Source: Isurus oxyrinchus
Taxonomy: Eukaryota
Length of the DNA: 64,000 nucleotides
Reading direction: 5' to 3'
Assembly: GCA_026770705.1 (NCBI GenBank)
Contig: JANJGN010000131.1
Location: 682,001 to 746,000, forward strand
The position numbers and the translations under genes are program-made. Numbering within the stretch: the stretch's first letter is position 1; the number at the start of each line of letters is the position of its first letter. Below, in pieces: positions 10,876 through 48,586 of the stretch. The notes under the pieces were generated by a model. The model was not told where the DNA came from. It was given only the letters and a program-made list of their open reading frames with translations, and did no database searches.

Positions 10876-11753
10876 TTACTGTTTAATAAATTTAACAATT
10901 ACAGAAAAGGGATATTTCACCACATTCTTCAGCTCCTTTCTGAATTGAGTCTGGGTCACTGCAGAAATAGCTAATTTGGTTCAACAACTCAGGAGCTGAA
11001 ACATAAACCCCAGTTCGTGCACAAATTTAGGAAGATTTTCAGGAATAGCACCTAACTAATATAGCCTATTACAAGCAGAATAGATCATAAAGATTGCCCA
11101 CCACAGGATAAAATTCCCCGATATAGCAAACAGTAAAATGATGGATTTCCTGTGTTTCTCCATCTCTGGGTCACTGGCATTCTCCCCAGTGCAGTGAACC
11201 CAGAGTCTCCTGCGGGCTGTGCTCGACACTAAAATATATCTGACAGTTAAAGCATTCAACACCAAAATAAAAACAAATGGTGCAAATAGAGTTAAAACAT
11301 AATGAAAAAAATCGATTGCACCAGTCACTAATGTGCAAAACCAAGGAGCGTTGGGAATTGCATACTGACCTTCATACATAAAGTACCAGCAAGTGCTCTT
11401 CACACAGAACAGCAGACTGACTGTTCTGAGAACCACAGCCGCTGTCTGCTCGGTGCAATAATTTGTTTTCAACTTGTGGGAATAATTGGCCAGAAATCTA
11501 TCAAAGGGGAAAGAGTCTGTGAACCAGACAGAACAATCTGTGGCTGCATAAAGCAGGACTGCATGGATAATACACACTGTAATCCTCCATATGAACGGAA
11601 ACTGAGCCCAGTAACGAATAGCAATTTGCCTGAATATGAGATCAAGAATAACGACGAGTAGATCCGCAGTTGCCATGGACACCAGGTAACGGGAAACACT
11701 TTTTGACAGACCGCACCTTCCCCGAGACCGGGTCACAATAGTCAATAAGTTCA
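10876..11753 (-). pseudogene. GPR139/GPR142-like class A GPCR pseudogene A, exon 2
   Basis: Acceptor cttacag at 11754; VNLLTIV…GRCGLSK…YLVSMATADLL…DCSVWFT..FPFDRF…DPEMEKHRKSIILLFAISG…; in-frame stops TAG (11056-58) and TGA (10981-83); the frame continues to …QLLSC*TK.AISAVTQTQFRKELKNVVKYPF…KQ* (10876); ECL2 is shortened. Confidence 0.9.
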
Positions 11754-13099
11754 CTGTAAGGAAGAGAAAGACAGGAAATTTATTGATTAACTTAGAGCAA
11801 CTTTTGCAGACTGAAATTTGAAGAGTTATCCAAGGTTAGAATCTAATTACTATACCAGTGTTTGAACTTTCCGCTGGAGGGATGGTTTCAAGTTAAACAC
11901 CATCCTGTTGTAACAGGAAACCAAATGCAGCAGCAGGTCCCAGCGCCATTTCCTGACCTTATTTATGGGGTTCGGAGTGAAAATCACTCATCCCATTACT
12001 AGTCCTGCTCAATATCCCATGAACATGCTCCAAACTGCATGCACGAACATTGGAAAATCATTTATAGGATGGGCTACGATTTGTACTGAAGGAAAATGGT
12101 TCATGTTTTATTTGACAAGGCAGCTGAGTGGAATAATAAGGCTGTGTAAAGAAGTAAATACAGATTTGAATTCATTCATAAATTGTCCTTCAAATCAGGA
12201 TATCCGAATTTGTCTTCCTGATAATTATTGCTCTCCCAAAAGCCACAATGAACCCTGAGACTGTACCCCAGTAACACACACACTCTCGAAAAGAACAAAC
12301 GAACAGGTTAGGTAAATGGATCGCTAAAGTGAAGAAAATAAATTAGAATTTGAATCAGAACTGGATACTGGCCAACAGAAAGGAGCAGCGGAGAGTGACA
12401 GCATCCCAAATTCAGGTTGGTAAGCAGGAGAGATTTTACCAATGGATCGGATGTGTGTGTTTTGGACCAGGAAATAAATGGGCCAGTGGTTGGGATTTGA
12501 GGTTGTTACATAGGAATGCAGGAACTAGGAGCAAGAGCAAGCCAGTTGTTCCCTAAGGCCAAGTCTAATGTAGACTAAGCCTATGGCCTTTTTTCGACCT
12601 CTACTTTTCAACACTGTCCTCATTTACATTGATGGCCTTAGAGCCCAAAGATCTGTCGACCATTTTCTTGACTGTATCGAAACCAACAGCCGTATAGATT
12701 TGATAATGCCAAAGATTCTCCACTTTCTGAGAGAACAAGATTCTCCCCATCTCAATCCTAAATGGCCAACAGCTTGTTCTCAGGCTATGGGCTCGAGTTC
12801 TGGACTCCCCAGCTAAGGAAAACATTCTCTCAGCATTTACCCAATGAGGAGACTAAATAATTTTCTATGACTCGATGAGATAATCACCCATCCTCTAACT
12901 TAAAGAAAATGCACGTCTAATTTGATTGCTTGATTGATTAGATACGTATAATGTTCAGTAGGCAAGGAGACCAAAACTGTAAACATTAACCCATATGGTT
13001 TCTCAACAATCACATGCATAATTCTATGAATAGGTTCCTTACTCGAAGACAGGGATCACTGCCATTTATTATCCTAATCACTTGCTGCAATATTGTATC

Positions 13100-14320
13100 C
13101 TATCCTCATTACAGCTTTGTTTCAAACATGGACAAAAGAGCTGAACTCCCGAGAGAGTGGCTGCCCTTGACATCAAGGCAGCATTTGGCAGAGTGTAGCA
13201 TCAAGGGGCCCTAGCAAACCGTGAGTCAATGGGAATCAGGGGGGAAATATCTGCTGCTTCTAACCATACCTAGCACAATGGGAGATGGTTGTGGTTGTCG
13301 GAGGTCTGTCATCTCAGCTCTAGCAATTCACTGCAGGTTTTCTTTAGGGTAGTGTTCTCGGTCCAACATGTTGAGCTGCTTCATCAATGACCTTCCTTCC
13401 ATCATATGGTCAGAAGTGGCATGTTCGCTGATGATTGCACAATATTAAGTAGCATTAACGACTCCTCAGGTACTGAAGCAGCCCAAGTCTAAATGCAGCA
13501 AGACCTGGACAATACAAAGGCTTGCACGGACAAGTGGCAAGTAATTTGTGCACCGCTCAATTGTCGGGCAATGTCCATCTCCAACAAGGGAGAACCCAAT
13601 CATCGCCCTTTGTCATTCAATGGCATTCCCATCAATGAATCCCCAGTATCAAACCCTGGGGTTTGCCATTGACCAGAAACGGAATTGAATGAACCATCTA
13701 AATTCTATGGCTACAAGAGCAGGTCAGAGGCTAGGAATAGTGCGATGCGTAACTCACCTCCTGATTTTCCACAGCCTGTCCACCATCTGCAAGGCACAAG
13801 TCAGGAGTGTGGTGGAATGCTCCTCGCTTGATTGAATGGGTGCAGCATCCAAAACACTCAAGAAGCTTGACACCATTCAGGGCAACCGTTGTTTTGGCAG
13901 CACGTCCAAAAACATTCACTCCCTCCACCACCGTCGCACAGTAGCAGCAGTGTGTACCATCTACAAGATGAACTGCAGGAAATCACCAAGGCTCCTTCGG
14001 CTGCACATTTCAAACCCTGACCACTGCCATCTAGAAAGACACAATCAGCAGACAGATGTGAACACCGCCAGATGGATGTTCCCCTCCAAATCACTCGCCT
14101 TCCTGACTTGGAATTATATCGCCATTCCTTCACTATTGCTGGGCCAAAATCCTGGAAATCCCTTCCGAACAGCACTTTGTGTGCACATACACCACATGGA
14201 CTGTAGCAGTTCAAGAAGGCAGATCACCACCGCCTTTTCAAGGGCAACTAGTGATATGTAATAAATGTTGGCCCAGCCAACGAAGCCCATTTCACATGAT
14301 TGGATAATAATAAAATATAT
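13100..14320 (+). mobile_element. CR1/L2-type LINE fragment inside the intron of GPCR pseudogene A
   Basis: Colinear with 5910-7245 (cctcattacagc..tgtttcaaacatggacaaaa…; HSLHHRRTVAAVCTIYKM; 3' tail aagggcaactagtgat..aataaatgttggcccagcca). Confidence 0.9.
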
Positions 14321-15899
14321 TGCATGTTAGCTTTCTCTAGTTTGTGTACCTGAGCACCCAAGTTATGAAAATTTACAATTACAGGTGTCTCACCTGTTGA
14401 AACGCTGGATGAGGATAGAATGCAACTCGTCTGTGTTACTATCTCAGGGAAACTAAAGATTATTGTGCAATATTAACACAGGACAGTGATGTGTGTAAAT
14501 TAAAGCGAAAGATAATTCATAAAATTAATGGTCCTGGCCTCCCATTTGGTGGTGATACTCGGATGATCAGCGTTGATTGTAAATATAATTAAAGCCCTAT
14601 TTTTTTCCACCCTTGCAGCATGTTTTTCTTGCCCACGTAGTGGGGTGGGGGAGATGAGGTTTGCATGAGGTGCGAGGATGTCGGGGTGGTTAGTAGTTGT
14701 TTTGGGGATGGGCGAGTAGTTAACGTGCTTTGTAGTCGGTTGGGGGCGAATGGATGGGCGATGGCTAGTGAGAGGTGTGCAATTGGGTCGAGGGGAAGGC
14801 ATTCGGGTCAGAGTGCGCATTCTGGGGTCAGTAGTTGGGGGTGATGTGTTTTTTTTCGTGTGGGCTGAATGTGGGAGGTCTGTGCATGGGGGTTGGGCGT
14901 GCATGGGCTGCGCCCCACAGTTATTCACTGACACATGCTAGAAATTAACACCGGGAAAATTCTAGGGCAAGCATGTGTTACACAGCAGGCACAAGAGTCC
15001 CAAACTGAAGTCAGTTTTGTGGTCATTGTCAGAGGGGCCCGGGTAGTACAGATATGCGTATCAGAAGTTTAAAGTTCGCAGATAATTACCATGTATGCTC
15101 CTGGATCAAGATTTCTGATTGGTCCTGATGTGCAGAGCGGCAGACATTTCAATATTTACCACTGTTGGCATCGGGCGATCCAGGTTAATGATGCAATCAG
15201 GATCCAATTCACCGCAATGGACTCCAGACACCAGCTTCAGATAGAGGGAAATTACAAAAGAGGGAAATGGAGACCAGGTCAAAGAAGGATGGCGAAGGGG
15301 GAATAACAAAAAAAGACACATGTTAAGAATTATCTTGAAGGATGATAAGTTTGTAGCGAGGACAACAGATTTAGGAGGTAATTCAGAACATGAAAGTCTT
15401 AATATTTCACTGCGGCCACCCATGCCAAAGGCTGCAGACATGTCGAGAAGAGGAAGGAGAGGGGTTTTGACATTAGCATAGTCACATAAGATAGAATTTG
15501 TGCCTTTGCTAAGGACGGTGTAAGAGTTGTAATAAGGGAGAAAAATGGTTAGAAGGATTTAAGCATGATGTCCCTGGAAGGTGGGGCGGAAACGTGGGGG
15601 TTAGCAGCAGGGACAAGGAATTTGCAGAGGAAAGAGATCTTAGAGATGGAGTGTTTGCTTACAAGGACTGAGGCATCAGGGGTTGTTTATTTACAAGAGC
15701 AGGGGTGATGGCTACAGATTGGAGCAGGAGAAGAACAGTGGCTAAGCAGATGGATCTATTAACTGTATCAGCAACTGACGAACATGTTGAAGAAGTTCGG
15801 TGTTCAGCAGTTTGGTGGGAGTGTACTGAACCAGTCCCCACCAGCAGCCACCGCTCCGCCCAACCCCCACAGCACGCCTCCCACCAAACCAATCAAAAG

Positions 15900-16380
15900 C
15901 TTGGAAATCTCACGCATGAAAAATGATGGAACGCTCACTACTCATCAGGATGGGTATCACAGCAACACACAATAAGCAGAATCACCTTCAAAAATGGAAT
16001 AGATTTTCCATCAGTGACCGTTCATCATTAAACTCGATATTTCACCGCCTCCACCTTTGTGGATGCAGCGAGAATCTCTACATAATCAACAACAACAAAA
16101 CACCGGGCCTACTTCGACAGCACGTACCAGCACAGCAAAATGCAGAAGGTGTGCGCAAGATTCACCTTCTCTAACGTACCATCCTGACTTGGACCGATAA
16201 CCTCTCCCTTCATCAGAATTCTGGAATTCCATAATACCAGGTAGGAGCACCGTCAGCAGAGGGAATAGTTCAGCTCAGCAAGAAGACCCAGCAACAGCTT
16301 CTCAGCTGACCTCCGGATGGGTAATAAACGGAACTTTGTCACAAGCATCCATGTCCCAAGAACACATTTTCAAAATAAAA
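15900..16380 (+). mobile_element. Older, heavily diverged copy of the LINE 3' end
   Basis: Residual matches (tctctacataatc..aacaac..accgggcctacttcgacagcac; accatcctgacttgga; ggatgggtaataaa). Confidence 0.55.
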
Positions 16381-17042
16381 ACCTGTGGGAGGGGGATACT
16401 GACTTACAGCTCTGAATAAAGTAATGCAGAGACAAGCGAAGGAAATTAGGTCTGTTGACAGAAATGGGAACGGAGCCAATTGTTGGTGAGGGGAGCAAGT
16501 ATTGTTGAACAATTATTACATTTTGTACCCTGTCCTAAAAATAAAGATTTTGTGACTGTTAGGCAAAGCGGGAAATGGTGGAATACAAGGTGCTTGGAGC
16601 TGAATCATTCTTGGAGATTCTCTCTTGTTCCTGCCTGCTCTGATTGCCACAGATCAGTGCAAATTACAACCTCCATCAGACTGCAAAACCAATACCTGCC
16701 AAATATATTTCGTCTGTGATATTGGGGTTCAGTTCAAAGAGCAGACTGCAGCTGTTCAATATCTATAATCCATCGCTAATATTTATTGCGTAAAATATTC
16801 AACCAGCCAAATTATGCAGAAAAAAATCAATTGAAGCAAGTCGTGAGATATAAAAACGGTCCATGAAACAGCGAACAGGGAATCGACACCTGGTGAAATG
16901 CTACTTGACAGAAACGTAGGGAATTACATGCCACACGACGAAAAAATTACAGAGAATAAATTAATTAGCTCGCATAAAACACAAGGACAGCAAACACAGT
17001 GAAAGATGTTTTATAAAATACATTTCTAAAATAATCACTCAC

Positions 17043-17139
17043 CAGGAATACCAACAGCAGCGAGGAGTGGCTAGTAAATCCTTTGTAAATTATAAATTAC
17101 CCACAGGATCCGACGTTCAGCTGGAATATTCCAAAACAT
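17043..17139 (-). pseudogene. GPCR pseudogene A, exon 1 (N-terminus and start of TM1)
   Basis: MFWNIPAERRILWVIYNLQRIY*PLLAAVGIP followed by the phase-1 donor G|gtgagt; TAG at 17071-73 replaces the second Tyr of the family YYP motif; joins exon 2 in frame (P-V-N-L-L-T). Confidence 0.88.
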
Positions 17140-17689
17140 GATCTCATTTTCTGTGAGATCTAATGATCGCCTTTAATATTGGGGGCCACTATACTCTTTC
17201 AAGCACTGATGTACACAGTGAACACATTGCCTAGATGTAGGCAGAGAAGAGTCTCCAGTGATTCAATTTAAACATACACTGGCTGACATTAAGTACAGTC
17301 ACTTAACAAACAAGATGCCTTAACCCTTTCATTCCATCAATTTCTATGGAAAAATATAATAAAAACAACATGGCATTCCTGTCAAGGTAATTCATTCAAA
17401 GCAAGCACATGACGTCAGCCACTTTTGTGAGAACAGATTATGGAATCTTGCAGGCTTGCAGCACACCTTGAGAAATAAATAGATTCAAATCCAGAGTTCT
17501 GATTGTTTTGGTGATAAAAATTCTGCCCAGCAATTTCACGTTATCAATTCATTTCTCAGGCGATGAACATAACACAAGTCCCAGGGGATGGTCAGAAGCA
17601 GTAACAGTTCTAAAGGATTTATGGTTGATGATCATCCCGTGATCAGAAAGTAAAAAGTGAACTGATAATTTGAAACTTATGTCTGGTCT

Positions 17690-18350
17690 AACACTAAACG
17701 TATACGTGATACCTCCGAGTGACACTTATTATGGAAATGATAAAACAGTTTAACTTGAAAACTGGCCTTGCAAATGATATCCCGGTGTAACAAAAACCAT
17801 GTAATTGAAATCCATGGAATATTAGTGCCCATGTAGAAAGCGGACAATCTAAATTGATCTTGTGCCTGACACCACAGACTTACAGTGATCACGTAACTGA
17901 TACCTGGTCGCACAGTGCTCCTTTAAATGATACCGAAATCCAGCAGTGGGTGTTTTACAGATACTGTCATCAAACGGTTACCATGGGATTGAAACCTGAT
18001 GTTCTGCTGGCCTTGTATCTGACACTCCGATCTAACAGTGACCTTGTAACCAATGTCCCGATCCACAATTTACCTTGTACCCGCAGTCTGTTCTAATCGC
18101 CACCTTGTAATTGATAATCCAGCCTAACAGTGACCTTGTAACTGTTATCATGATCTAACATTGGCCATGCACTTGATAGTCCAGTCCAGCAGTGACATTT
18201 TAACTGATAATTGAATCTAACAGTGACCTTGTACCGGATGTCCCAATTTAGCCCTGATCATTTATTTGAGGCTCTGGCTGACAATGACCTTGTGACTGAT
18301 ATCCCAGTTTAATAGTGACTTTTTACCCGATCCTACGGCCTGAAATTGAC
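17690..18350. repeat. Degenerate minisatellite (tctaacagtgaccttgtaac(c/t)gata…) upstream of GPCR A
   Basis: aacagtgaccttgta recurs at about 18034, 18126 and 18219, with variants between; related array at 3150-3620. Confidence 0.75.
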
Positions 18351-18894
18351 CTTTTGTTACGTTAGTGTCATTGTTCAGATGTGTTTTTTTCAATGTAATC
18401 TTTAATTTTGGAAATTAGAGATTTAACTGATGGCACTGGGTACATCTGGTGACGAAACTGGCAAATGCAGCCCTAAATTTAATGTAATGGAAACAGCCTT
18501 AGTGTTTATTATTCTTAGAAGGCTGGAGCCATGTTGACTTAAGATTTAACAGCCAGGAAGTTAAGGTCTTCATACTGCAGGTGGTCTTCATTGGCTACGG
18601 AACAGGAACAGGACGTCTGTAGTTATTCCAATGAATTAAAAGCTATTTACGTGGTTTACCAGAATTAAGGAAAGTTTTGGAATTAACAGATAATTATTTT
18701 GCCATTCTACACGGTAACAGACCATGTGTGTCATGTTTATGTGAAAATATCTGGAGCTCAGTTGAGAGTTTAGAAAAAGATGGAGTGCAAAAATATATTT
18801 GTGATCAAAATTTGGTTCAAGTTCGCGGTGTTTGCTTCAAGAATTAAAACTTTTGTCAGCTGTAGGGATTTCATACTCTCTCAAACACATGGCC

Positions 18895-19340
18895 TCACAG
18901 TCACACAAATGCAAATGTGTGTGTGCACACACACATACACACACACACACATACACAACAGGTACAAATGCAGATATACACAACCCCATAAGCAGACTCA
19001 TGCGGGACATGTAAACATATACATGAATATGTTCATTACTATGCTTCAACGAACACAAAAATATAGATCTAAAGACACACTATCATGCACAGTAATGCAA
19101 ATACATAGGCATTTCCATACACACATTAACAAATTGATACACGGGCACTTAGATGAACAGGCAATAGCATTTTCACTAACACTGAACAAGAAACGAAAAT
19201 GAATATATTCACACACCCACAATAACACAAACACATAGAAACACACATTTTAGTACACATGGACAACTAAACAGACATAAACACATAGTTATAAACATCC
19301 ATCAACACATAAAGGCACGCCGTAACATATTCACACGCTC
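18895..19340. repeat. CA-rich low-complexity tract (resumes at about 20590-20830 after the Penelope insertion)
   Basis: (CA)n and ACAC/ACAT-rich sequence on both sides of the element. Confidence 0.8.
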
Positions 19341-19414
19341 ATGCAGGCAAAATTATTAACATAGCAAACAGAGAACCTAAAAAGTCATAATATCAGATAC
19401 ATTAACAAGCAAGG

Positions 19415-25729: not shown

Positions 25730-25800
25730 AAATTAATGCATTTAATGCAAGAGATCAAACCACATAATTAACTCCCTGGCGCTTCACATCAGTTATAAAT
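25730..25800 (+). promoter_or_regulatory. Putative core promoter of GPCR B: TAAT motifs, O/E-like site, TATA
   Basis: TAATTA 25765-70, TCCCTGGCG 25773-81 and TATAAA 25794-99, about 55 nt upstream of the ATG; aligns with the upstream region of GPCR C. Confidence 0.55.
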
Positions 25801-25850
25801 GTGACAATCTTTCAGTGATGTGCAGAAGGCGTTCAGAACATTTGTTGGAA

Positions 25851-25920
25851 ATGCACGGATCACCAAAAGACCTTCTGTCTGCCGTTTATTATCCAGTCCT
25901 TGCAGCTCTCGGGGTTCCAG
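25851..25920 (+). CDS. GPR139-like GPCR B, exon 1
   Basis: MHGSPKDLLSAVYYPVLAALGVP followed by G|gtaaag (70 nt, phase 1); closely resembles exon 1 at 44228-44297. Confidence 0.9.
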
Positions 25921-28082: not shown

Positions 28083-28939
28083 CTAACCTGGCGGTGATTG
28101 TGATCCTTTCTCGAGTAAAATGCGGTATCTCCACCTGTATAACCTATTATTTACAATCCCTGGCGGTGTCAGATCTCCTGCTCATTATAACCGCTGTGAT
28201 ATTGAACCGGATTGCTGGTATTTATTTCCCACTCAGTTTCCTGTCAATCACACCAGTATGCAGTCTCCGTGAAGCCCTAATATATTCAGCCATAGACAGC
28301 TCTGCCGGGTTAACTACAGCTTTCACCTTTGATCGATTTGTGGCCATTTGTTGCCATAAGCTGAAAGTAAAATGTTGTTCCAAAAGAACGGCGGCACGGG
28401 TTATAGGGACAATCTGCGCAATCAGCTGTTTCAAAAACACCTTCCAGTATTTTATATACGAATCTTTGTACATAATTGACAATGTGCCCTGGTTCTGCGA
28501 TGTAAAAGTAATATTTTATACCTCACTTGCATGGATCGCCTATGACTGCATTCATCACATTTTAACCCCTTGTCTCCCAATCATTCTGATTTTACTGCTC
28601 AATGTCCTGACAGTCAGACACATTCTCGCAGCCAGTAGAGCTCGCAGGAGACTCCAGACCCGGAGAAATGGAGACAATCAGCGTGACCCTGAGATGGAGA
28701 AGGGGAGAAAGTCCATCATTTTACTCTTCTGTGTATCGGGAAGTTTCATCCTGTTATATTTGTTACTTTTTATAACTTTCCTCTATGTGCAAATTGGAAA
28801 TGTTAAATACTTATCAAGCTCGGAAATCAATCTTTCAATATTCATTCTTGAGGAAAAAGCATATATGCTTCAGTTTTTGAGTTCCTGCGTCAACCTGTTT
28901 ATTTATGCAGGGACCAGAGTAAATTCAGAGAGGTGTTAA
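28083..28939 (+). CDS. GPR139-like GPCR B, exon 2 (TM1-TM7); a 1-nt deletion after TM7 truncates the C-terminus, so possibly a young pseudogene
   Basis: Acceptor (CT)n…ttgcag; ANLAVIVILSR.KCGIS…AVSDLL…AFTFDRFVAICC…PCLP…DPEMEKGRKSIILLFCVSG…LSSCVNLFIYAGT; spliced ORF of 308 aa. Restoring one base at about 28914 gives GTQSKFREVLKNGVKYPLLEIVKLFGR* (stop at 28990-92; 326 aa). Confidence 0.88.
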
Positions 28940-29699
28940 AGAATGGGGTGAAATATCCACTACTTGAAATTGTTAAATTATTTGGACGATAAGGACAGCA
29001 GAATCCAACTTCAACTGTACACAAGATTCCATCCTTTCCCCTTCTTGTCGATGCCACGCATTGTTTTCCATTCTAGTTCACAGTCACTCAGTTTGAAAAT
29101 AAGACTGTTAAAGGGGCAATACATCCGAGCACAATTAAGTGTCAGTATCTGTTCTCTGGTAGTTAAATGTTCTCTTCCCCATATTTTCTGTGGTCTGTCT
29201 TATTCCCATCAGAATCCATGGTCCTTGTAATCCTCGTAGTATCTCTACGTTCATGTGGACGGCAAAGTGTTGTATATCTGATTTGTTAGCACATTCCAAG
29301 ATGAACTGTTGATAAAGCAACTACAATCTCCCCGCGTCCCGCCCCAGTAATGATTCTGATCTTGATGGTTGGATACGCTTCGAAATGGATGCACATACTA
29401 TCCTCAGGAATTGTTCTCCACTGACCAAACACCGCTTTACAGCAAACACCTGAGCCCCTAAATATACAAACAGCGGACTGTGGGATTGCGATGGCAAAAC
29501 ACCATCAATTCATCTTCTGCACTTTCCGTTGGCCAATTGGGAAGAGTCCCATCTCTACAGGGGCCCCAAAAATGACCAACAAAATCATTTTTAAAAAAGT
29601 TATAAAACTGCATAAGGACATTATCTTCATTTATCATTTATAAATCTTCAGCCGATTTCGTTTCCTGCTGTCCTGTTAGCCACGTTGATAAAGGTAGAA

Positions 29700-38110: not shown

Positions 38111-38129
38111 CAATGGTTCCCTGAATATA

Positions 38130-38365
38130 GTCTGCTCTGCCCCTAAATACAATGCTCTCTGCCCTGTAAATGGAATGATCTCTGTCCCCTAATACAATTT
38201 TCACTGTCCCCTAAAACAATGACCACTGTACCATAACCATAATGATCACTGGCTGCTAAATACAATCTTTGAATGTCCCCTAACTACAATGATCATCTTC
38301 TCCTAAGTTCAATCATTAATGTCCCCTGAATGCAATCTTCACTGTCCCCTAAAAATAATGTTGAT
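38130..38365. repeat. Minisatellite of about 23 bp (tgtcccctaaatacaatgatcac)
   Basis: About 10 degenerate units; cccctaa…caat at about 38140, 38186, 38208, 38277 and 38346. Confidence 0.8.
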
Positions 38366-41300
38366 TCACCCATAAATTGAACAATGCGCTCTCTGCAGGG
38401 AACATTTGTCAGAGCTCCGCAAGGGATTATTTAGAAGTTTACTAGAAAAGCATCATATTACCGCTGCTTTAAATGTTATTTATAGATAATTATTTTAAAA
38501 TAGACTCTGCACAGTCACAGGCCCCTGTGTACTGTACCCAGTTCGGTGAGTATGTTTTTGTCAAGGAGCTGGTGATGCGATTGATAACTTCCAGCGTTTT
38601 TTCTTTTTGTTGCTTTATGAGATTTTCAGATTTATTTCCATGTTACATAGTTGCCTTTGAATTACTTTCATCTTTTTCAGCTTGTGATTACTGGCTCTAA
38701 TGGCTTAATTACAGTATCACTTTTTACAACCAACGCTTTGTTCAAATAACTTAAGTGTAAAAATTACAGTAATCAGGGATACAAGCACATCATTAAACCT
38801 AAATGAGATACGGACCAAGGTGTGGCTTAAAACAGAGCAATTCTATTTCATTGATTTATTAACCTCTGTTTGCTTTTCTACATATAATTTCCAATCCCTG
38901 TTTTGTAGACTCCGGCCGATCATAGAAAACACACTAATTTAAATCATGAAGTCTTCTTAATTTCACAAAGTTCAAATGAACATGTAATTAAGAAAATACT
39001 TTGAAATGGAAGTCGATCTGTAAGTTTACTAAGCTAGATATCGGGCATTGTTGTTTACGTGTCGTCTCAGAGGTGAAACATAATTGTTACATGTAACTGC
39101 TAACCAGACCTCCACTTTAATAGCAATTTCTCAAAATGCACAAATCCAACCAAGAGGATAATTACTTTTTATTTTAAGTTTCAGCTTCTTGTTCCATCGC
39201 TAGAACTCTCGTTTTTAAAATTTTTTTTATGTATTTGTAAAAAAGTGTGACACATGTTTTGTGATGGGTGTCCTGCAACATAAGTGCATCGGTTCCAAGA
39301 CTAACAGCAAATATGCAAACGGAAATGGTAGGTTGTTTGATAGTGACAGAGAAACTAACCAATCAATATGGACATTCATTTTGAGTGGAAAGGTTCGTCT
39401 CTTTTAAAGATAACAAGTTTATTTAATGTCAGGAGATCTAATTGTTCTAAATAAACATCAAAGAGGTATTTGAACTTAATCATTATTTAATTGTCATTGG
39501 GCCAGTTTGGTGCAGGTCACTTTCTAGTTGTGGACAAAAACGCCCAACACTTTAAGATTTTTTTTTTCGCGGTATGGCCAAACCTAACTCTGAATGGTGA
39601 TAGAAACCTGGAATATTGGCTGAACGGTACAATTCAAAATATGATTATGTCAGCCTGTTGCCTGAATTCTCTCTGGGGCAGATCTCATGCATCCGCATGT
39701 GTGTGAAGAAGACTTTACAGGATCGACAGAGCTGACTGTCTTTTTGTTGTTTCTGGTGCTTAGCTCGATGCCGGGTGTTCCATCGGTTCTATTTTCAAAC
39801 ATTTTCTCCCGCTTGCTAGGCCAGTTAAGGGGGAAGTTGTTACTCCACTGCATCTCCCTGGGCGTAGCGTCACATAGAGGCCAAACTTGGGGAAGACAAC
39901 TGAATTCCTTCATGAAAGTAAGTGAATGAAACGGATTGTGCTAATTCATGAGAATTCTGTAGTTTCATGGTCATCATTCATAATTGCTCTTTTTTAATTT
40001 TCAGCTTACTTTCGTGAACTGAATTTATGTTCATCAGTTGACGTGGTGGGATATAGATTTTCGTCCCTGAATCACTAACCTTGCGTTCAGATTTACTAGT
40101 CCATGAACCTGAGCACTATTCCAACATACATCAAGGCAATTGTCTACCAACGAGATATAGAGACTAGGGTTCAATTGAAAATATCAAAACTGAGATTGAT
40201 AGGATTTGGTACCATCTGCTTTAAACTAAGGTGTCCAAATGGAGACATTCTGCATATTAGCAATGCACTAATTGAAGGACAGGGAAGATTCCCGGACCAG
40301 AATATCCTTCTCCTTTTGCTATGGGTCAACAACTTCGGGATAGGATCCAAAATTGCACTGGTAAATGCATAACTGAAATCAGAAACCAGATATAGTCAGC
40401 AATTTCTGCAAAGCAGCGAGAAGGGAACAAGGAGGCATGGAACAGCACTAAGCAGATTGGAAAAATGGTCGCCAGTATAGTAAGTATGACTATATTTCAA
40501 TAGTGTGACAGCAAAAAGAATGTGATGCACACTGGACAGAGAGTGCTCCAATGCAATGGATGTGGACAACGTTTTAACTAGTTAGCACAGCATGAATAAA
40601 TAAACGCATCACACCATTCACAGTGGGGAGAGGTCTTGCACGTTTTCAATGACTGGACGAAGTTTCAACAAATCATCCAACGTCAGTAGCACAAGGATGC
40701 GGTATACTGCGAAACATTGCAAATGAGGACACTGTAGGACGGGACTTGCTTCCTCAGCCTGCCTGCTAATTAATCGATATATTCCCACTGAGAAGAAGTC
40801 GTTCACATGCTGCATGGATTAGGGAAGATGTTAACAGTTGTTTCTTCTTCTCACAGTCCGTTATGTTCAAGAGGTAGACGTGGGAAAAACCTTTCAAATG
40901 ATATGTAGTTGGCGAGTGACTCAGTCGTGCATTTCAATTGCTGACAGATCAGTGAAATTTCAAGTAGCAGCAGAATTTCAACTATGTTCTTACTAAAGAT
41001 GTTAATCACATCTGGGGTTATTTAATAATCTGGACAAAGGGCATATAAAGCGAAGGCTAATGCATCAGTTTCCACCTCGACATTGAAAGACCTTTCGAGG
41101 TATAACAAATAATTACTTCCTTACTCACGATCTTCCGCTGGCAACAGTGACAAATATTGAGACCAGTGCCACATTTTGCATTTGGGGAGCAGGGGAACTG
41201 CCATACCCCAAGCGCATGTGCAGTATTCACCCGAGATTGGGATAATGATCTGTTGCAATGAGTAGCCAATAACTTCTCTGGCGTGAGATTTTGTGGCTAT

Positions 41301-42069
41301 CAGGATGGCAAGAAATGTGTTTGTGCATGGTCAGTGGGGAGCGGCAGTGCTGTAAAGTGTGGCGAGTCATTCAAAAGCTCATTGGCTTTGGCAGAACCAA
41401 AAAATCTCGCCGCCGAGAGGGGCCATAAAATTCTGAATTTGCCATTACATTTGATGAGTGATTTTTAATAATTCTGTTGTTCACGATTGATGCCCGTTGA
41501 AAATAAGACACTGTAGTTAGACTCGATTTATGCTGTTTGATAATACTGGAAATGTCATCGTAATTGTCCGATTGAAAGTGTAGAAGGTGAATTACTGTTG
41601 TTCATTTTTTCCTGCCCCTTATTCCTATGTTTAATGACAAGGGTTAGCGAGTGTGAAGCGGTGACTAGTGAGTTGAGAACAATGCATGGGAGCAGCATTT
41701 GTTACCGTTTCAGAACGCCTTTTACCTATAAGGTATAAACCACACAAAGCAATAACATTGAGGTTCCTACCTTAAATTGTTAAATTTTGGTATCTAATAT
41801 CAGATCTAAGCCGGACTCTCTGTCTCCTACATGGATTTCCAAGGCCATGGCGTCTGGTGTGGATGTACCAGGCCCCTGCTCGCACGAGGAAGACAACTAA
41901 AAACTAACAGGGAGCAGGCAACGTTCTTTATACATTGTTAAATTCACACGGAGGAAAAGGGACTCAAAGAAAATGACGCTGTTTCCGGGAGACAAAACTT
42001 TTGTGTGAGATAAACAAAAGCAGCAATGGATGGAACACTCATTATGACTCATGTTGAATTTTATTTTTA

Positions 42070-42980
42070 TCATCTTTTAAATAATTTTACAAGCAGATTC
42101 AATGGGAATTTCACACCATTCTTTAACTCTTCTCTGAATTTACTCTGGGTCCCTGCATAAATAAACGGATTGATGCAAGAACTCAGGAGCTGAAGCATAC
42201 GTGCGCTTTCCTCCATAAGAAAATTTGATTCATTGAAATTGGTAGAGTCTGCATAGCTAAGATTCGCAATTCGGACATAGAGGAAGTTTATAAGTCTTAA
42301 CAAATGTAACAGGATGAAACTGCCCGAGATACAGAAGAGCAAAACGATGGACTTCCTTCTTTTCTGCATCTCTGGGTCACTTTGATTCTCTCCATTGCTC
42401 TGGATCCGGAGTCTCCTGCGGGCTCGACTGGCCGCTACAATGTGTCTGATGGTCAGAGCATTGAGCAGTAAAATAAGGAAGAAGGAGAGGCAAAGGTTTA
42501 AAACTGCGATTATGCTTTCATAAGCGACCCATTCAGGTGCCGTATAAAATATTGATTTTGAATTGCATTGCCAGGGTATATTGTCAATTATAAAGGCAGG
42601 CTCACACATAAAATACAAGGGAATGCTTTTAACGCAGTTAAGTACAGAGACAGTTGCTATCACCGCAGCCGCCATTTTCTTAGTGCAATATTTAATTTTC
42701 AGCTTCTGGCAGCAAATGGCTACAAACCGGTCAAAGGTGAAAGCCACTGTTACCCAGACAGAAGAATCGATGACTCCATAATTTAGCACAAGTCTGAGGC
42801 TGAAGACCGGAGTGATGGCCAGGAGACTGAACGGGAAATAAATACCTATAATCTGGTTTAATATCACAACTGTGATCCCGACAAGAAGATCCGTCACGGC
42901 CATGGACATCAAATAGTAAGTGATACATTTGGAGAGACCGCATCTTCCTCGAATCAGTATCACAATCACGACCAGATTAG
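42070..42980 (-). CDS. GPR139-like GPCR C, exon 2 (open reading frame intact)
   Basis: Acceptor gctgtcacag; ANLVVIVILIRGRCGLSKCITYYLMSMAVTDLL…SSVWVTVAFTFDRFVAICC…DPEMQKRRKSIVLLFCISG…LLSSCINPFIYAGTQSKFREEL…*; seven hydrophobic segments, DRF and NPxxY present. Confidence 0.93.
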
Positions 42981-44227
42981 CTGTGACAGCGAAACGCAGC
43001 CAGCAAATAGCCAATTTTGGGAAAGAAATTTAGAACATAAAATGTTGGAAATTCTCAGTCAGGCAGCAGTTGAAAAGAGAGGAACAAGTTAGCATGTCAG
43101 AAAGATGATCTGGAGGAAAATATCCTAAAACACAGCAATCTGTTCTGTACTGTCAGCAACACTAAGGGCTAACTCAAGGTGAACATTGAACGTCCTGCAT
43201 TGTGACCCTGAAATACAGTCAATGTTGTTCTCATTCAACGTTTAGAGACGGGAAAATATAACAATACTCTGAAACATTGGAAAATCGAAGGTTAACAAAT
43301 ACATTATAGAGCTTGAAAAAAGTTCAGCAAAAAAAAAGCTACTACTTAACTGAAAAGAATATGAAGGAGATGTGATGCATCTGAGTTGTAACAATTCGAA
43401 GTTAAAGGAACAAGGCTTCACAGCCACGAGTAAAACTAATCATGCTTACTATGGCTCAGTTTACAGCAATCTCACTTTTGAGTCAAAAGGTTTAGCGTTC
43501 AAGCCCAACTGTTGGACTTCAGCAACGTTGTACTGCCGGATATGCTATATTTCAGCTAAAACAAAAGACTGAGGACCGGTCGTGAATACAAAATCTTACT
43601 TAAGAAATAGCTGTTATTCACATTCCAGCGCAAGGAGCAATATATGCACATGGCAAAGTGAGGTAATTCAACAGCTGTGTCAATAACACCATAGAGCTAC
43701 ATTTACAGCGTGATAAATCAGCCATGGTGACAGTGTCAATAATACAATTGATTTACATTGCACTGTGATATTAGTGTGCTAAATACTTCACCCACATTAA
43801 TAATGACAATAACAACATCTAATTACGTTTAGACTGAGAGGCGGCACTGCTAAGTTGGCAGAAAAGTTTTATTTAAAGAGATGAAATGGCATTGGCGAAG
43901 CAAACATAGTAATCCCTGAAATGGAAGTAAGTATAGTGGCAATGGGAAGAAACTGTTCTCGTGAAGGGGAGAAATTGTAGCCTTAAAGTGGAGAAAAGAG
44001 ACCAGTAATGACCAGTAATATTGCAAGGAAAGGGAAGGTTTAATATCATTTAAAAGAAGAATGCACCAAACGTGGAGATAAGGATACTGCAAAAAAGGGA
44101 AAACATTATAAAAAAAACAAATTATCCTGTTAATGGGGTGAACCATAGAGAAGCAGTACAGCTAAATTAAAGAAGTGATAGAGTGAAAAATGATTCTGGT
44201 AACTGGTAACTAACCCTAATACTTTAC

Positions 44228-44306
44228 CTGGAATACCGATAGCTGCAAGAACGGGATAGTAAATGGCGAACACCAGACCTTTTGGTATCCCATGCATTTC
44301 TCTCAT
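44228..44306 (-). CDS. GPR139-like GPCR C, exon 1
   Basis: (MRE)MHGIPKGLVFAIYYPVLAAIGIP followed by G|gtaaag, phase 1; spliced product 326 aa from the ATG at 44297, or 329 aa from 44306. Confidence 0.9.
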
Positions 44307-44344
44307 AAGCTCCAAGTGCGCTCTGTGCTACACCGAAAGACTTT

Positions 44345-44415
44345 TAGATTTATACATGATGTCGGACTCTAGGGAGACAATGAGAAGGTTTGGCTTTTTA
44401 CATTAATTACACTAA
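44345..44415 (-). promoter_or_regulatory. Putative core promoter of GPCR C: TAATTAAT, O/E-like TCCCTAGAG, TATAAA
   Basis: TATAAA 44349-54, TCCCTAGAG 44367-75, GTAATTAATG 44401-10; aligns with 25730-25800. Confidence 0.55.
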
Positions 44416-45049
44416 CTGAAAAAAACATTTTAGTGCAGCTGCTGCCGCGCTCCCATTTATGTTTTTGATGGAATAGAATCTGTTTTCAAGGACACTGGCA
44501 CGGCTCCAAATTGAAATAATCAGACAGGAGAGTACGGTCCAAGTTGCATTTTTTCCTAAAATTTAAATAACAAGCCAAATAAGCGATTGTAATTGTGAAA
44601 GTGAGCACTGTGCATGAGCATCCATGGCTTTAAACCCCGCAGGAAAACATTACAAAGTTCTCACTCTTGATCATTTTTCAGCCCGTGTGAACACGGATCA
44701 CGTGTAATGTGGCTCCCTTTCCCTCCTGGAATGAGGAACCAATCAGTAGCCATCCACCCTCAGCCTCTCTGCCTGCTTGGACGTCAACTCACGACGAAAA
44801 CTCTGTAAATGAAACGCCAATGCTACGGGTATTGGCTTGCGTCCTATTTCTGTTTGGCTTTTGGATGGATTTGTAGCAGAATTATTGATCCAGTCCCACT
44901 CAAGCACCTCCATCACACTTTTGCCTGGTATATTCATGACCAGATCAGTATTGATCTCGTTCAACCCCTGAACTGGAAAATGAGGTTACGTTTGCTTTGG
45001 AATGTAACCCTCCCCATGCACTTACTTGCTCCATGTTTGAAATTTATAT

Positions 45050-46310
45050 TTTCTTCTGCCACTTTGATGTGGACACATCGGGGAATTGGCTATGGCCCAA
45101 TATTCAACAGAAGTTCACCAACAACCAGTTATCTTGAATACACATCCATGCACATCGTTTACTGGAAAGGCTCTTTTCTGTTCTCTCAGAATCTCAGTTT
45201 CTGCTGAATATGTTCGATTATCCCTTCTAGCTTTCTCCAATAGAGCTTCCAATGACTTCAGCCGAGTATTTCCAGCGCACCGTGGTTGACAGAACCCAGT
45301 GCCGTGCATGTAACATGTCTCACACTTCTGCTTTCACACCTTCCCCCCCTCCAGTTTCCACAATAGGCTTCTCCTTGCCCTTGCATACCATTCCACACAT
45401 CTCTTGTATCATTTCGTCCACCTCTGCATTTTCAAACTCATCCGGCATGTTGTCACTGCCCAATATGCCCAACTCACTTCTACTATTTAACATTGAGAAT
45501 GGGTCTTTGCTCCACTCCGCACTTGTCTCCTCCAAAGTCAATCCAACCCCTCCTTTTCCGAAGAACGTTCCCATGCACGCAATGAACATGCAACGCCAGC
45601 CCCTGTCTCCATGCCCTTCTCTCTGTCCTACGTCTCAAACAATGCTTCTAAATGGAAAATCGATTTGTTTGAACTTCTGTCCATTGAGTATACCCTGTTC
45701 ACTGCTCAATATGCAGCCTGCTCCACATTCTGGAGGTTAAATGTAGATTGGTGATAATTTCTCAGGTACATCCATTCGGTCCACAAGTGTGATCTTCTGG
45801 TCACTTGTCACCCTAATTATCTGTTCCATTCTCACTTTGACATGACTGTCATTGAACCCTCCTACTGCTCCAAGGAAATGGAACCAGTGCTCCAGGAGTA
45901 AAATCTCATATTTCCTTAAGGCACTTTCTAGGCTTTTGGATTTTCCATAAATTTCAACAAGCGTGATCACACCCACTGCATTTTTCTTCCTTCTTTGCTC
46001 TTTGTTATTGCGTTGGGAAAACATCTCTTGATTTTGATTCTGTTATAAACAGTTTGCCGTCTTTTAGACATTCCTCTTCTGCTTTTCCTTGTTCCACTTT
46101 GACTTCCACCATCACTGCTTTTGTCATTTGATTTTTCCTGTTTTCCCATTTACCAGAAGCATCTCCTTTTGAACATTTTTCCCCCAAAACCGTCTTTTGC
46201 CTCTACACTTGCATTAAAACTGTTCCATCTGTAACTTTTGACTGATTTGATGAAAGGTCACATGTTGCCGGATATCTTGAGTATTTCCATTGTTTCCTGT
46301 TTAATTCCAT
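45050..46310 (+). mobile_element. Old, decayed Penelope-like element (RT C-terminus, GIY-YIG and pLTR remnant)
   Basis: Residual matches to Penelope ORF 3' motifs (ttccagcgcaccgtggttgacaga; tgttcactgctcaatatgcagcctgctccacatt; aaatctcatatttcc.taaggcac) and a pLTR-like end (tgatgaaaggtcac…tgagtatttcca). Confidence 0.55.
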
Positions 46311-47544
46311 TCAGGATGTTTACATTCAGTGTAGAAATGTGCAGCTCGGCACGGTTATATTCACAGTGCGCACGCCTGGTTTGGCATGGTTACTTCCATT
46401 GTGGACTAGTACAATTCAGTTAGTGTAGCCATGTCAATCCCGGCAATAACGAAAGTGCACAGGTGTGTGAATTTACATTTTGTGTGGCAAGATCCAGTTC
46501 AGGACGTGTGTGCTTGGTGTTTTCAGTCTAAGCTCAGTCCACTCACATTCAGAAAAGACAACTTCCTGTTGAGCATGATTAAATTAATGATGGAGCGCTC
46601 CAAATCAACATGGTTATATGCCATGTAGAAAGTCCTGTTCAGCTCGTTAGCAATCACTGTTTAGTGGAAAACCAGTTTAGGGGATTATCACGCTGGTGTG
46701 ACTGTCCAGTTCAGTAAATTGCATTCACTGCATTCAGGTTAAATTGTGCACAGCTCCACTCAGTACGAACAGGCCAATTTCTATCCTGTTACACTGAATG
46801 TACATGGACGACTTTTTGCCCGATTATTGTCAACTTTGTCCAGTGGAACACAACTACGTACAATGTGCACAGCCCCGGCTGTGAACACTTTCTTTCTTGT
46901 AGTGGAAAATTTCACTTCAGCGTGATTACATTCCATATAGAATAATCAATTTCATTACTGCTGTATTCGATGGAGACAGGACTGGCCAAGCATGGTTATG
47001 TTTCGTGTAGATTTATGATTGTCTGCTCGGTGTTAATAAATGTGTACATGGACATTTGCATTCAGACTGGACTGGTTTAGTTCTGCATTCTTACTTTTAA
47101 TTTGAGCTTCTGTGGTTCACTGTGGTGGACAGTCCCAATTGATCACTGTGAACCTTTTAATTTCCCAGCAGCTATGCTTCGTGTGCAGATGTCTTGATCA
47201 GTGAGGTTACATTCAATTTGCGTAATTGCAGTTCTGTAGCATGATTTTCAGTGCAGACTGTTCTCGGCCGGAGAGATTTTATTCATTGTGATTTTCCACA
47301 CAAAATCTAGGTCTATTGTTACTGACAAAGGAAGGTTCATAGGCAAAAGTATCAGGGGATGAGGAGGTTCTGGAGACTTTGGAATTGTCTTCTCCAGAAA
47401 ACAAGAGTCGGCAGGGGCACTAAATATATTCAAGGCATAGTTAGACAAATTATTGATCGACAAGAGATCCGATGGTTACTCAGTCTGGCAGGAAAACGGA
47501 GTTAAGGCCAGGATTACATCTGTCATGAACTCCGATGGGTATTA

Positions 47545-48390
47545 CACAGCGTTGACAACAAAATGCATCTTAGGAGAATTGAATGGAGCAGTTAACAGCA
47601 GCAACAGAGTTAAAAGTGCTCTTCATAACAGTTAATCGATTGCAACTATTTGATAAATTTACGAATAAACATGTGGAGGGTAAACAAAAATATGGAAAAC
47701 TACATACCACTATCATTTATAGCTTCACGCCAATTAGAAAATATGCTGATCTGTAATGGTTAAGCTCAAATCGCCACAAAACAACACCCTCCCACAAATT
47801 ATGTTCCTTCTCCCACAGTTTGCTCTTTCAGTTATCCAACAACAATCCTTCGCAATGTCCTCTTCTTAACCAAAATATTTACTGTATCACATGGCTTGTT
47901 TTTGGCAGCACTTTGGATACAAAACTTACTGTTGCTTCCTTTTGAACCTTCTAAATACGGTGAAAAGCTGAGATCCAAATACAAATCGTGCGAATCAGCT
48001 GTCACCCCTGTCAATTGGACTGTATTCACATTACCGATCAACAAATTAAATGAGCTTTGTACATACCACAGCCATCGCGAGTTAAATTTATGTCGATATC
48101 AATTTAAATTAACATCTAGGCATGTAAAATAAATGACCTGTTTAACTAAGAAATTCTGGTTTTAATGACATTATTGAAGTAACAATTAAACTACATTGTG
48201 CAGCATTTGTATCATTACCAAAACGTCCGTCAACACAAGACACAGAAATCGCGGACACACATAAAACAATCTTGAATGTTTTGCTGTTGGAGGACAGCCA
48301 AACATCCGGAGAAGCTAGACAGTAAACATCTGACCCTCATGCTTCACAGTTGAACAAACATTGAAAAGACCTAATTCCGGAAAAACAAAA
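47545..48390 (-). repeat. Copy 1 of a duplicated unit of about 850 bp, possibly a decayed leader plus V-set Ig-domain exon
   Basis: Colinear with 49421-50285 over its full length; minus strand shows ttgacag|..VTADS.DLY, LEGS and INDSGM*FS. The duplication is certain; the Ig-domain reading is tentative. Confidence 0.8.
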
Positions 48391-48429
48391 CGTATAATTC
48401 AGATTCAGAATGTTTCCGTTTCGTATTTT

Positions 48430-48586
48430 GAGTGGCTCAGGAAACTGACAGGAAAATAAACAGCCGTAAACCAGCTTAATACCAGTGTAATGATAATAAC
48501 TTGGAGATCTGTCACCGCCATGGACTCTGCGTATCTGGAAAGACCACATCTTCCTCGGGAACGGATCACGATAGTCAACAAGTTAA
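48430..48586 (-). pseudogene. Truncated GPR139-like exon 2 fragment D (TM1-TM2/ECL1 only)
   Basis: (CT)n…cccttacag acceptor, then VNLLTIVIRSRGRCGLSRYAESMAVTDLQVIIITLVLSWFTAVYFPVSFLSH; homology ends abruptly and there is an internal deletion of about 3 codons. Confidence 0.85.

What the first reader, a model, noticed from the sequence alone, without database searches (positions are those of the whole stretch)
10876..48586. Birth-and-death cluster of two-exon GPR139-like receptors: a candidate uncharacterised sensory or immune receptor repertoire
Seen: four paralogous class A GPCR loci in about 38 kb. The three loci with both exons share a phase-1 intron in TM1 (YYP.LAA.G.P|(A/V)NL), and the fragment starts at the same acceptor. 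Family motifs include (G)RCGLS in ICL1, FDRF and DPEMEK.RKSI.LLF. They span the full range of states (open, one frameshift, multiple stops, fragment) and at least two subfamilies (short versus long N-terminus), and differences appear concentrated in TM3, ECL2, TM5 and ECL3. Established: mammalian GPR139 and GPR142 are single-copy receptors for aromatic amino acids (Trp/Phe), and cartilaginous fishes have small classical OR repertoires. Inference: tandem expansion, high turnover and pocket-side divergence are what chemoreceptor or variable immune receptor families look like, so this may be a lineage-specific amino-acid/peptide-sensing family with no assigned function.
Basis: partly seen in the sequence, partly recalled or inferred. 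Interest (0 to 1): 0.85.

Follow-up and report, generated by a model that had tools for sequence, protein, structure and literature searches.

The report
Giant shark receptor family inside immune loci
This shark DNA holds one intact and four broken copies of a cell-surface receptor gene from a family of over two thousand copies that is mixed in among antibody, T-cell-receptor and MHC genes and is likely an overlooked set of chemical sensors, although the tissue that uses it is untested.

Summary
Observation confirmed: four two-exon class A GPCR loci (intact, frameshifted, multi-stop, fragment).

The family is huge: 2,342 and 2,056 exact hits to two independent motifs, 0 in controls (haplotigs not removed). 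It is not GPR139: GPR139 and GPR142 are separate single loci, an exclusive clade with them is rejected (AU p=4e-5), and the Trp/Phe site is not kept. Its sister is a single-copy amphibian/sturgeon orphan.

The G-protein face is conserved (identity 0.89) and the pocket is variable (0.40). Promoters share a homeodomain plus O/E-like plus TATA cassette resembling odorant-receptor elements, but eight shark V2R promoters lack it.

New here: copies are interleaved with IgM/IgNAR clusters, TCR V segments and MHC class I genes, and they co-duplicate with an orphon V. No expression data could be obtained.

Best reading: an independently evolved chemosensory repertoire (0.5); immune use (0.25) stays open. 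The scan noted this family before on other windows of this genome. Ten literature searches found no description.

The parts
3969..4136 (+). Orphan fifth locus: promoter element (homeodomain + O/E-like, 3969-3985), TATA-like box and exon 1 (4067-4136) with GT donor; no exon 2 on this strand before locus B
   Evidence: tblastn of exon 2 finds nothing on + between 4137 and 28060
10876..11753 (-). Locus A exon 2, pseudogene: two premature stops and an 8-codon deletion at ECL2/TM5
17043..17139 (-). Locus A exon 1 (32 codons, premature stop at codon 23), phase-1 GT donor
17253..17269 (-). Locus A decayed homeodomain + O/E-like promoter element
   Evidence: 13 of 15 match
25765..25920 (+). Locus B promoter element (25765-25781), TATA box and exon 1 (ATG 25851; upstream in-frame ATG 25818)
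28083..28992 (+). Locus B exon 2: seven TM helices open, then a frameshift removes helix 8 (stop at 28939); R6.30 also changed
42070..42980 (-). Locus C exon 2, intact (mid-TM1 to C-terminus); lacks the TM3 cysteine C3.25, as do all 27 distinct close copies
44228..44306 (-). Locus C exon 1 (short N-terminus and outer TM1), phase-1 GT donor
44349..44410 (-). Locus C promoter cassette: palindromic homeodomain site, O/E-like site, TATA box
48435..48586 (-). Locus D: fragment of exon 2 from the acceptor to TM2/ECL1, with a 4-codon deletion
51112..51375 (-). Degenerate TCR-type V segment (one stop) followed by a canonical heptamer and near-canonical nonamer, 22-nt spacer
56562..56849 (-). Degenerate TCR alpha/delta-like V segment
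59555..59866 (-). Open TCR alpha/delta-like V exon with an atypical 23-nt-spacer recombination signal (read by eye); 30 copies at 88% or more, 23 of them within 60 kb of a locus-C-type receptor

Best explanation
These loci are copies of a shark-and-ray receptor family of over two thousand genes and pseudogenes whose signalling face is conserved and whose binding pocket varies, and which likely works as an independently evolved chemosensory repertoire, with each cell predicted to use one or a few genes to detect different waterborne or body-derived molecules. Shown: copy number, turnover, inner/outer contrast, shared promoter cassette, interleaving with antigen-receptor and MHC genes, origin next to a single-copy amphibian/sturgeon orphan. 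Inferred: that the cassette binds Lhx2-type and Ebf-type factors, that expression is in sensory cells and sparse, and that all members feed one G-protein pathway. Ligands are unknown; the GPR139 Trp/Phe site is not kept. Recent copy gain is largely by block duplication of the surrounding immune regions.
For: Scale: 1,564 strict and 2,342 relaxed TM3-motif hits, 2,056 hits to an independent TM6 motif, 0 in each control. The relaxed motif finds 71 of 104 known loci. By contrast there are 2 olfactory-receptor matches at E<=1e-25 and 37 class C cysteine-rich exons. Across 33 diverse intact members, 20 activation/inner positions have identity 0.89 and mean omega 0.09; 33 pocket positions have 0.40 and 0.63. 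Omega is 0.31 on the inner half and 0.48 on the outer half; allowing omega>1 gains 2dL=25, with 6 of 8 flagged sites in ECL2/ECL3. In 24 promoters picked by exon 1, not by motif: O/E-like 13 (shuffles 3.7), homeodomain 17 (8.9), TATA 14 (2.7); the joined element at >=12 of 15 bases in 10 of 24, against 0 of 24 upstream controls. A genome-wide cassette pattern gives 108 hits against 5 in the control, and 27 of 30 fetched hits lie just upstream of a family exon 1. Adjacent Lhx2/Ebf sites mark mouse odorant-receptor enhancers (PMC5608512). No family name appears among bamboo shark single-cell cluster markers.
Against: No expression data: eight laid runs were contigs of guessed kind with no spliced joint seen. 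Eight V2R promoters of the same genome lack the joined element (O/E-like 2 of 8, homeodomain 4 of 8), as does the one intact OR. The spacing differs by one base from the single mouse composite probe seen. Homeodomain sites are as common further upstream (16 of 24). The promoters are homologous, so shuffles overstate significance. Ebf, forkhead and E-box sites (forkhead 17 of 24, E-box 7 of 24) also fit a B-cell programme (recalled). The genes sit among Ig, TCR and MHC genes. Among 27 recent copies of locus C there is no outer bias (2 of 5 flagged sites, 2dL=5.3). Higher outer omega is usual for class A GPCRs and may be relaxation. Catshark olfactory neurons nearly all express Go and TRPC2 and are attributed to V2Rs (PMC10116579).
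Confidence: 0.5

Rival explanations
1. A germline-encoded, variable immune receptor family used by lymphocytes, myeloid cells or mucosal/thymic sentinel cells to detect microbial or self peptides, kept beside Ig, TCR and MHC genes because it shares their regulation.
For: Copies lie between TCR V segments and beside an IgM minicluster at C26:35.15-35.30 Mb; on C38, C42, C20 and C26 with IgM and IgNAR-type constant exons; either side of a V array on C163; and among MHC class I genes on C21 93.5-100.3 Mb, for example 8 kb and 11 kb from class I exons at 99.68 and 100.10 Mb, and on both sides of class II-like exons at 79.6-80.9 Mb. Only 27 of 2,342 motif hits lie on C1-C19. Promoters carry Ebf-like, forkhead and E-box sites.
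Against: No gene named GPR139 or by five alias names among bamboo shark cluster markers (weak, since sparse multi-copy genes drop out). No enrichment of octamer (1 of 24), RUNX (2 of 24) or ETS sites, and TCR V upstream regions lack the joined element (0 of 12). Light-chain-like loci on C13 and C16 have almost no copies nearby. Mammalian odorant receptors also sit beside MHC and TCR alpha/delta (recalled), so linkage does not decide. Most copies lie on contigs whose immune content I did not test.
Confidence: 0.25
2. Mostly passengers: a modest set of receptors was multiplied because it lay in duplication-prone antigen-receptor and MHC regions, and the assembly adds haplotype duplicates; the extra copies are redundant and decaying.
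For: An 18.5-kb inverted block at 95.6% and an 8.6-kb block at 84.9% lie around the window. 23 of 30 copies of an orphon V travel with locus-C-type genes. Shared lesions are copied too: all 17 close copies of locus A are broken and B's frameshift recurs. Only 6 of 17 exon-2 loci in the 15 pattern-picked regions are open. Equal-scoring pairs on C26 and C38 suggest duplicates. Omega among recent copies is 0.46.
Against: Deep subfamilies are 41-73% identical, with invariant activation residues under strong constraint. Shark and ray members pair within subfamilies, and 2,045 database clusters at 90% were hit. So diversity is old and maintained. 100 of the 131 nearest matches have no internal stop (counted by eye).
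Confidence: 0.15
3. Receptors for reproductive or endocrine peptides (testis, sperm, oviduct), descended from a peptide-receptor lineage related to invertebrate MIP/sex-peptide/FMRFamide receptors.
For: The wider clade is kin to protostome MIP, FMRFamide and sex-peptide receptors (PMC8514136; Atlas neighbours). The model matches peptide and chemokine receptors as well as GPR139. Some catshark V2Rs are expressed in testis (PMC11979771).
Against: An endocrine ligand set would not need thousands of variable pockets; R6.51, kept in all low-copy relatives (K in amphibians), is the most variable pocket site here. No direct evidence.
Confidence: 0.1

Closest known systems
GPR139 / GPR142 (vertebrate Trp/Phe-responsive class A receptors)
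   Same: Best PDB sequence match (E 5e-8); same phase-1 intron in TM1; mostly no proline at 7.50; W6.48 and H5.42 kept in many members.
   Different: 22-24% identity to locus C; separate single loci in this genome; exclusive clade rejected (p-AU 4e-5); N7.39 in 2 of 33, R6.51 lost; TM3-ECL2 cysteines kept in 30 of 33; thousands of copies against one each.
Single-copy orphan of amphibians and sturgeon, labelled 'probable GPR139' (e.g. Pleurodeles XP_069092602.1, Xenopus tropicalis, Microcaecilia, Acipenser)
   Same: Sister to the whole family (100/99); shares the FTFDR and DPEM..R.SI.LL motifs.
   Different: One conserved gene per species, 66-74% identical among amphibians; about 31% to locus C; uncharacterised in the papers searched.
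Vertebrate OR, TAAR, V1R and V2R chemoreceptor families
   Same: Clustered birth-and-death arrays, short N-terminus in most members, variable pocket and conserved inner face, homeodomain + O/E-like + TATA promoter (PMC12547500), linkage to MHC and TCR loci (recalled for mammalian ORs).
   Different: Different ancestor; two coding exons; not picked up by the OR profile; shark V2R promoters lack the cassette; sensory expression not shown.
Elasmobranch antigen-receptor complex (AgRC; PMC12227049) and MHC (PMC10751288)
   Same: IgM and IgNAR clusters linked to TCR alpha/delta, with stray V exons between IgH clusters, match the surroundings of this window.
   Different: Neither main text contains GPR, GPCR or G protein, so the interleaved receptors were not noted there.
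Formyl-peptide receptors and MRGPRs (class A families shared between immune and sensory use; recalled)
   Same: Lineage-specific class A expansions that serve both immune and sensory cells.
   Different: Unrelated in sequence and tens of copies, not thousands; recalled, not tested here.

Membership tests
Class A (rhodopsin-like) GPCR | 7tm_1 domain, seven helices, D2.50, D/E-R3.50, N7.49 and Y7.53 | tested here: met
   Pfam E 4e-19; model pLDDT 81 with seven helices and helix 8; the listed positions invariant in 33 of 33
GPR139/GPR142 | Forms an exclusive clade with GPR139 and GPR142 | tested here: not met
   AU p=4.2e-5, 56 lnL lower; three low-copy orphan lineages are closer
GPR139/GPR142 | Trp/Phe site F3x33, H5x43, W6x48, N7x38 | tested here: not met
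   Locus C has Y, I, H, R; family F/Y 23, H 16, W 25, N 2 of 33; residues from the abstract of PMC5430874
Wider GPR139/142-MIP/FMRFamide receptor group | Shared phase-1 TM1 intron and nearest-neighbour status | tested here: met
   Same acceptor position in GPR139, GPR142, a third paralogue and 84 of 86 further intact-frame rows; PDB and Atlas neighbours; the root rests on two somatostatin-type outgroups only
GPR139/GPR142 | Activation by aromatic amino acids via Gq | not testable with these tools
   Needs a cell assay
Olfactory receptors (OR) | 7tm_4 profile match and OR ancestry | tested here: not met
   Only 2 genome matches at E<=1e-25, on C11 and C4, neither a family member; Pfam gave only 7tm_1
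Chemoreceptor-type repertoire (works like) | Large clustered family with many pseudogenes | tested here: met
Chemoreceptor-type repertoire (works like) | Variable pocket, conserved G-protein face | tested here: met
   0.40 against 0.89 identity; not seen among recent copies of locus C
Chemoreceptor-type repertoire (works like) | Homeodomain + O/E promoter logic | tested here: inconclusive
   Cassette present but absent from 8 V2R promoters, spacing off by one base from the mouse probe, binding untested
Chemoreceptor-type repertoire (works like) | Sparse expression in sensory neurons | not testable with these tools
   Runs offered were unlabelled contigs; catshark supplement unreadable
Variable immune receptor family (works like) | Linkage to antigen-receptor or MHC loci | tested here: met
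Variable immune receptor family (works like) | Expression in leukocytes or lymphoid tissue | tested here: inconclusive
   No hit in one bamboo shark marker table; low sensitivity for sparse multi-copy genes

The most novel reading that the evidence does not exclude
Sharks and rays carry a fifth, independently evolved chemoreceptor family of about a thousand intact genes, run by odorant-receptor-like Lhx2/Ebf promoters and woven through the MHC class I cluster and the Ig/TCR complex. It would overturn the view that sharks smell with a few dozen receptors and show that the MHC/TCR-to-chemoreceptor linkage arose twice, perhaps to read individual or immune-derived peptide signals.
Probability: 0.3. 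Interest if true: 0.93.

Novelty: new variant of a known kind. Interest (0 to 1): 0.8.

Why it matters
Published counts give cartilaginous fishes a few dozen olfactory receptors despite large olfactory organs (PMC10116579) and report a paucity of GPCRs (PMC8455134). A family of more than two thousand loci hidden under the label 'probable GPR139' would rival mammalian odorant-receptor families in size. If sensory, it fills that gap; if immune, it is an unknown germline receptor system inside the oldest MHC and antigen-receptor complex. Public multi-tissue nurse shark RNA-seq exists (named in PMC12227049), so the question is directly testable.

Tried and rejected
Expression: one run search and two read-laying runs (18, 21, 114) gave only contigs of a related organism, of guessed kind and without tissue labels. 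No joint across the TM1 intron was listed, and one contig ran from exon 1 into intron-like sequence, so nothing is concluded.

The catshark supplement could not be read; tissue tables there may bear on expression.

The first tree held locus A in the wrong frame and was redone. For the AU test three badly trimmed rows were dropped and the family was thinned to 12 of 24 rows.

A bootstrap of omega failed on a parsing error and was not repeated, so the inner/outer omegas have no intervals.

Capture-recapture from two motifs gave 4,300-6,900 loci, rejected because the listed places are pseudogene-rich and unrepresentative.

A TCR alpha constant-region profile found nothing, so the TCR constant genes were not placed. 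The V type on C163 was not resolved by PDB. Exon 1 of GPR139 and of the third paralogue was not found, so their promoters were not compared.

The fold search did not single out a nearest structure; GPR139 ranked 45th and 50th. Rfam found nothing in the window.

Rejected: transposon or artefact (intact splice sites, 7TM fold, purifying selection); simple GPR139 duplicates.
Full report
OBSERVATION. The window is G000:C131:682001-746000 of a 4.98-Gb genome. It is a shark: family proteins match Heterodontus at up to 75% and a single-copy gene matches Cetorhinus at 95%. The four loci are as described. C is intact (326/329 aa). B has one frameshift after TM7. A has three premature stops and an 8-codon deletion. 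D is a fragment from the same acceptor. All three introns are GT-AG, phase 1, in TM1.

SIZE OF THE FAMILY. A protein search returned 7,808 first-look candidates, of which 130 were scored; 100 of the 131 matches have no internal stop (counted by eye). Exact motif counts: 1,564 (strict TM3), 2,342 (relaxed TM3), 2,056 (independent TM6 motif), each with 0 control hits. The relaxed motif catches 71 of 104 loci found by protein search, so 2,342 undercounts the assembly. Haplotype duplicates were not removed and could inflate the count; equal-scoring pairs on C26 and C38 suggest some. Open frames: 6 of 17 exon-2 loci in 15 pattern-picked regions and 4 of 10 in the contiguous 184 kb around the window. 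About 900-1,000 open genes before purging is an inference from these small samples. The same genome gives 2 OR matches at E<=1e-25 and 37 class C cysteine-rich exons. The database search hit 2,045 clusters; the named ones among the top 120 are all sharks, and rays and skates appear among named representatives. I saw no chimaera member.

IT IS NOT GPR139. True GPR139 is one locus on C15 and a GPR142-like gene one locus on C22 (name inferred from 55% identity). The family is monophyletic (95/87; 99/98 when thinned) and sister to a single-copy gene of salamanders (100/99), whose orthologues occur in frogs, a caecilian and sturgeon. Two further low-copy fish/amphibian orphans join this clade (94/92; 99/97), one of them single-copy on C6. 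Holding the family with GPR139/142 alone is rejected (p-AU 4.2e-5). All share the TM1 intron, so they belong to the wider group that includes invertebrate MIP/FMRFamide receptors (PMC8514136, passages). Of the four residues tied to Trp/Phe activation (PMC5430874, abstract), locus C keeps none exactly, and N7.39 survives in 2 of 33 members. The amino-acid inference therefore fails.

SELECTION. Across 33 diverse intact members, 20 activation and inner positions have identity 0.89 and mean omega 0.09; 33 pocket positions have 0.40 and 0.63 (numbering by alignment, not from model coordinates). Omega is 0.31 inner and 0.48 outer. My own grid site test gains 2dL=25 with omega>1 and flags 8 sites: 4 in ECL2, 2 in ECL3, 2 in the C-terminus. 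Gene conversion and loop misalignment were not controlled. Against: 27 recent copies of locus C show omega 0.39 against 0.54, 2dL=5.3, and 2 of 5 sites outside. The model of locus C exon 2 is a 7TM bundle (pLDDT 81) that matches peptide and chemokine receptors without a clear nearest one.

PROMOTER. They share a forkhead-like site, a palindromic homeodomain site, a homeodomain site joined to an O/E-like site, and a TATA box. Counts against shuffles: O/E-like 13 vs 3.7, homeodomain 17 vs 8.9, TATA 14 vs 2.7, forkhead 17 vs 6.3, E-box 7 vs 1.3; octamer, RUNX and ETS are not enriched. The joined element matches at >=12 of 15 bases in 10 of 24, against 0 of 24 upstream windows. A genome-wide pattern gives 108 hits against 5 in the control; 27 of 30 fetched hits precede a family exon 1, and 15 of those 30 are near-identical copies on C34. 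Adjacent Lhx2/Ebf sites define mouse OR enhancers (PMC5608512, passages and one supplement; PMC7804114, passages); OR promoters carry O/E, homeodomain and TBP motifs (PMC12547500, passages). Against: the spacing is one base off the mouse probe, homeodomain sites are as common upstream (16 of 24), and 8 V2R promoters, 1 OR and 12 TCR/Ig V upstream regions lack the element. Ebf, forkhead and E-box sites also fit B cells (recalled).

NEIGHBOURHOOD. This is the main addition. In 200 kb of C26 two family loci lie among 18 V-like segments and beside an IgM minicluster with V-D-D-J signals. IgM constant exons occur on C38 and C20, C1-set hits on C42, C100, C126 and C146, and IgNAR-type exons on C26 within 60 kb of family genes. 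Two copies flank a 12-V array on C163. On C21, copies are interleaved with MHC class I exons at 93.5-100.3 Mb and lie on both sides of class II-like exons at 79.6-80.9 Mb. Only 27 of 2,342 motif hits are on C1-C19. The window's open V has 30 close copies, 23 within 60 kb of a locus-C-type gene (8 of 10 on C38, 1.1 expected), and an 18.5-kb inverted block at 95.6% lies next door. Recent growth is thus by block duplication. This setting matches the antigen-receptor complex of PMC12227049 (introduction, first third of results, term search and supplements), which does not mention GPCRs; nor does the main text of the MHC paper PMC10751288 (term search). Limits: light-chain-like loci on C13 and C16 have almost no copies, and most copies sit on smaller contigs whose immune content I did not test. 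Labels for IgM, light chains, class II alpha and TCR V type rest partly on recalled motifs.

EXPRESSION. Not obtained. A bamboo shark single-cell marker table has no 'receptor 139' or alias entry (PMC11372145, supplement term search, file cut when stored but the shark sheet precedes the cut). The catshark top-50 brain/olfactory list has no GPCR at all (PMC11979771, passages). Both are weak for sparse, multi-copy genes. Catshark olfactory neurons nearly all express Go and TRPC2, while the V2R co-receptor v2r1 is expressed only at moderate frequency (PMC10116579, passages and two sections), which leaves room but proves nothing.

MECHANISM. Most likely each gene encodes a short-tailed class A receptor with a conserved coupling face and a private pocket, driven by a compact shared promoter and renewed by block duplication in the same unstable regions that hold Ig, TCR and MHC genes. 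Sensory use is put at 0.5, immune at 0.25, mostly passenger at 0.15, reproductive or endocrine at 0.1.

NOVELTY. Ten searches found no description of the family; term searches of PMC8455134, PMC10620051, PMC12208981 and bioRxiv 2024.09.09.611499 showed none either. The library lacks most subscription journals. RefSeq already models members under the names GPR139, GPR15-like, capa, FMRFamide or sex-peptide receptor. The scan noted the family on other windows; those notes are leads, not support. An expanded chemoreceptor-like GPCR family is a known kind, but this one comes from a different ancestor, at unusual scale, inside immune loci: a new variant.

Noticed in passing
L135, L148-L151 (G000 C34, C85, C110, C68, C91), exon 1: One subfamily has a long N-terminus built of a variable number of 14-residue tandem repeats, most with an N-glycosylation sequon; much of the small-contig expansion appears to be of this type.
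   Followed up: partly
window 42804-42806 (locus C, TM3) and close copies: All 27 distinct close copies and the sister clade L156 lack C3.25 but keep the ECL2 cysteine, yet stay open; the usual disulfide is missing.
   Followed up: partly
L064 (G000:C6:157.84 Mb); P0346, P0357; P0339: Three conserved low-copy orphan GPCR lineages of fishes and amphibians are all labelled 'probable GPR139' in databases but are distinct genes.
   Followed up: partly
window 51112-59866: Orphon TCR-type V segments; the open one has 30 copies at 88% or more, away from the main V array at C26:23-40 Mb, with an atypical heptamer. No leader exon was confirmed.
   Followed up: partly
G000:C26:23-40 Mb, C140, C151, C152, C210, C301: Repeating units that combine TCR alpha/delta-like V segments, IgM miniclusters and family GPCRs every 150-400 kb.
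   Followed up: partly
G000:C163, C1134, C1481: Array of paired V segments of another type (TCR beta-like by recalled motif, unresolved), about 45% identical to V segments on C31, flanked by family genes.
   Followed up: partly
P0309, P0318, P0359, P0245: Database models fuse family exons to sodium-channel-, integrin-, uromodulin- or hemopexin-like sequence (labels read by eye); probably gene-prediction artefacts.
   Followed up: no
window 5963-6469 (+): Reverse-transcriptase fragment, probably of a LINE (Pfam RVT_1, E 1e-17).
   Followed up: no
G000:C11:7.09 Mb and C4:194.74 Mb: Only one intact and one broken classical olfactory receptor pass E<=1e-25 in this genome.
   Followed up: partly
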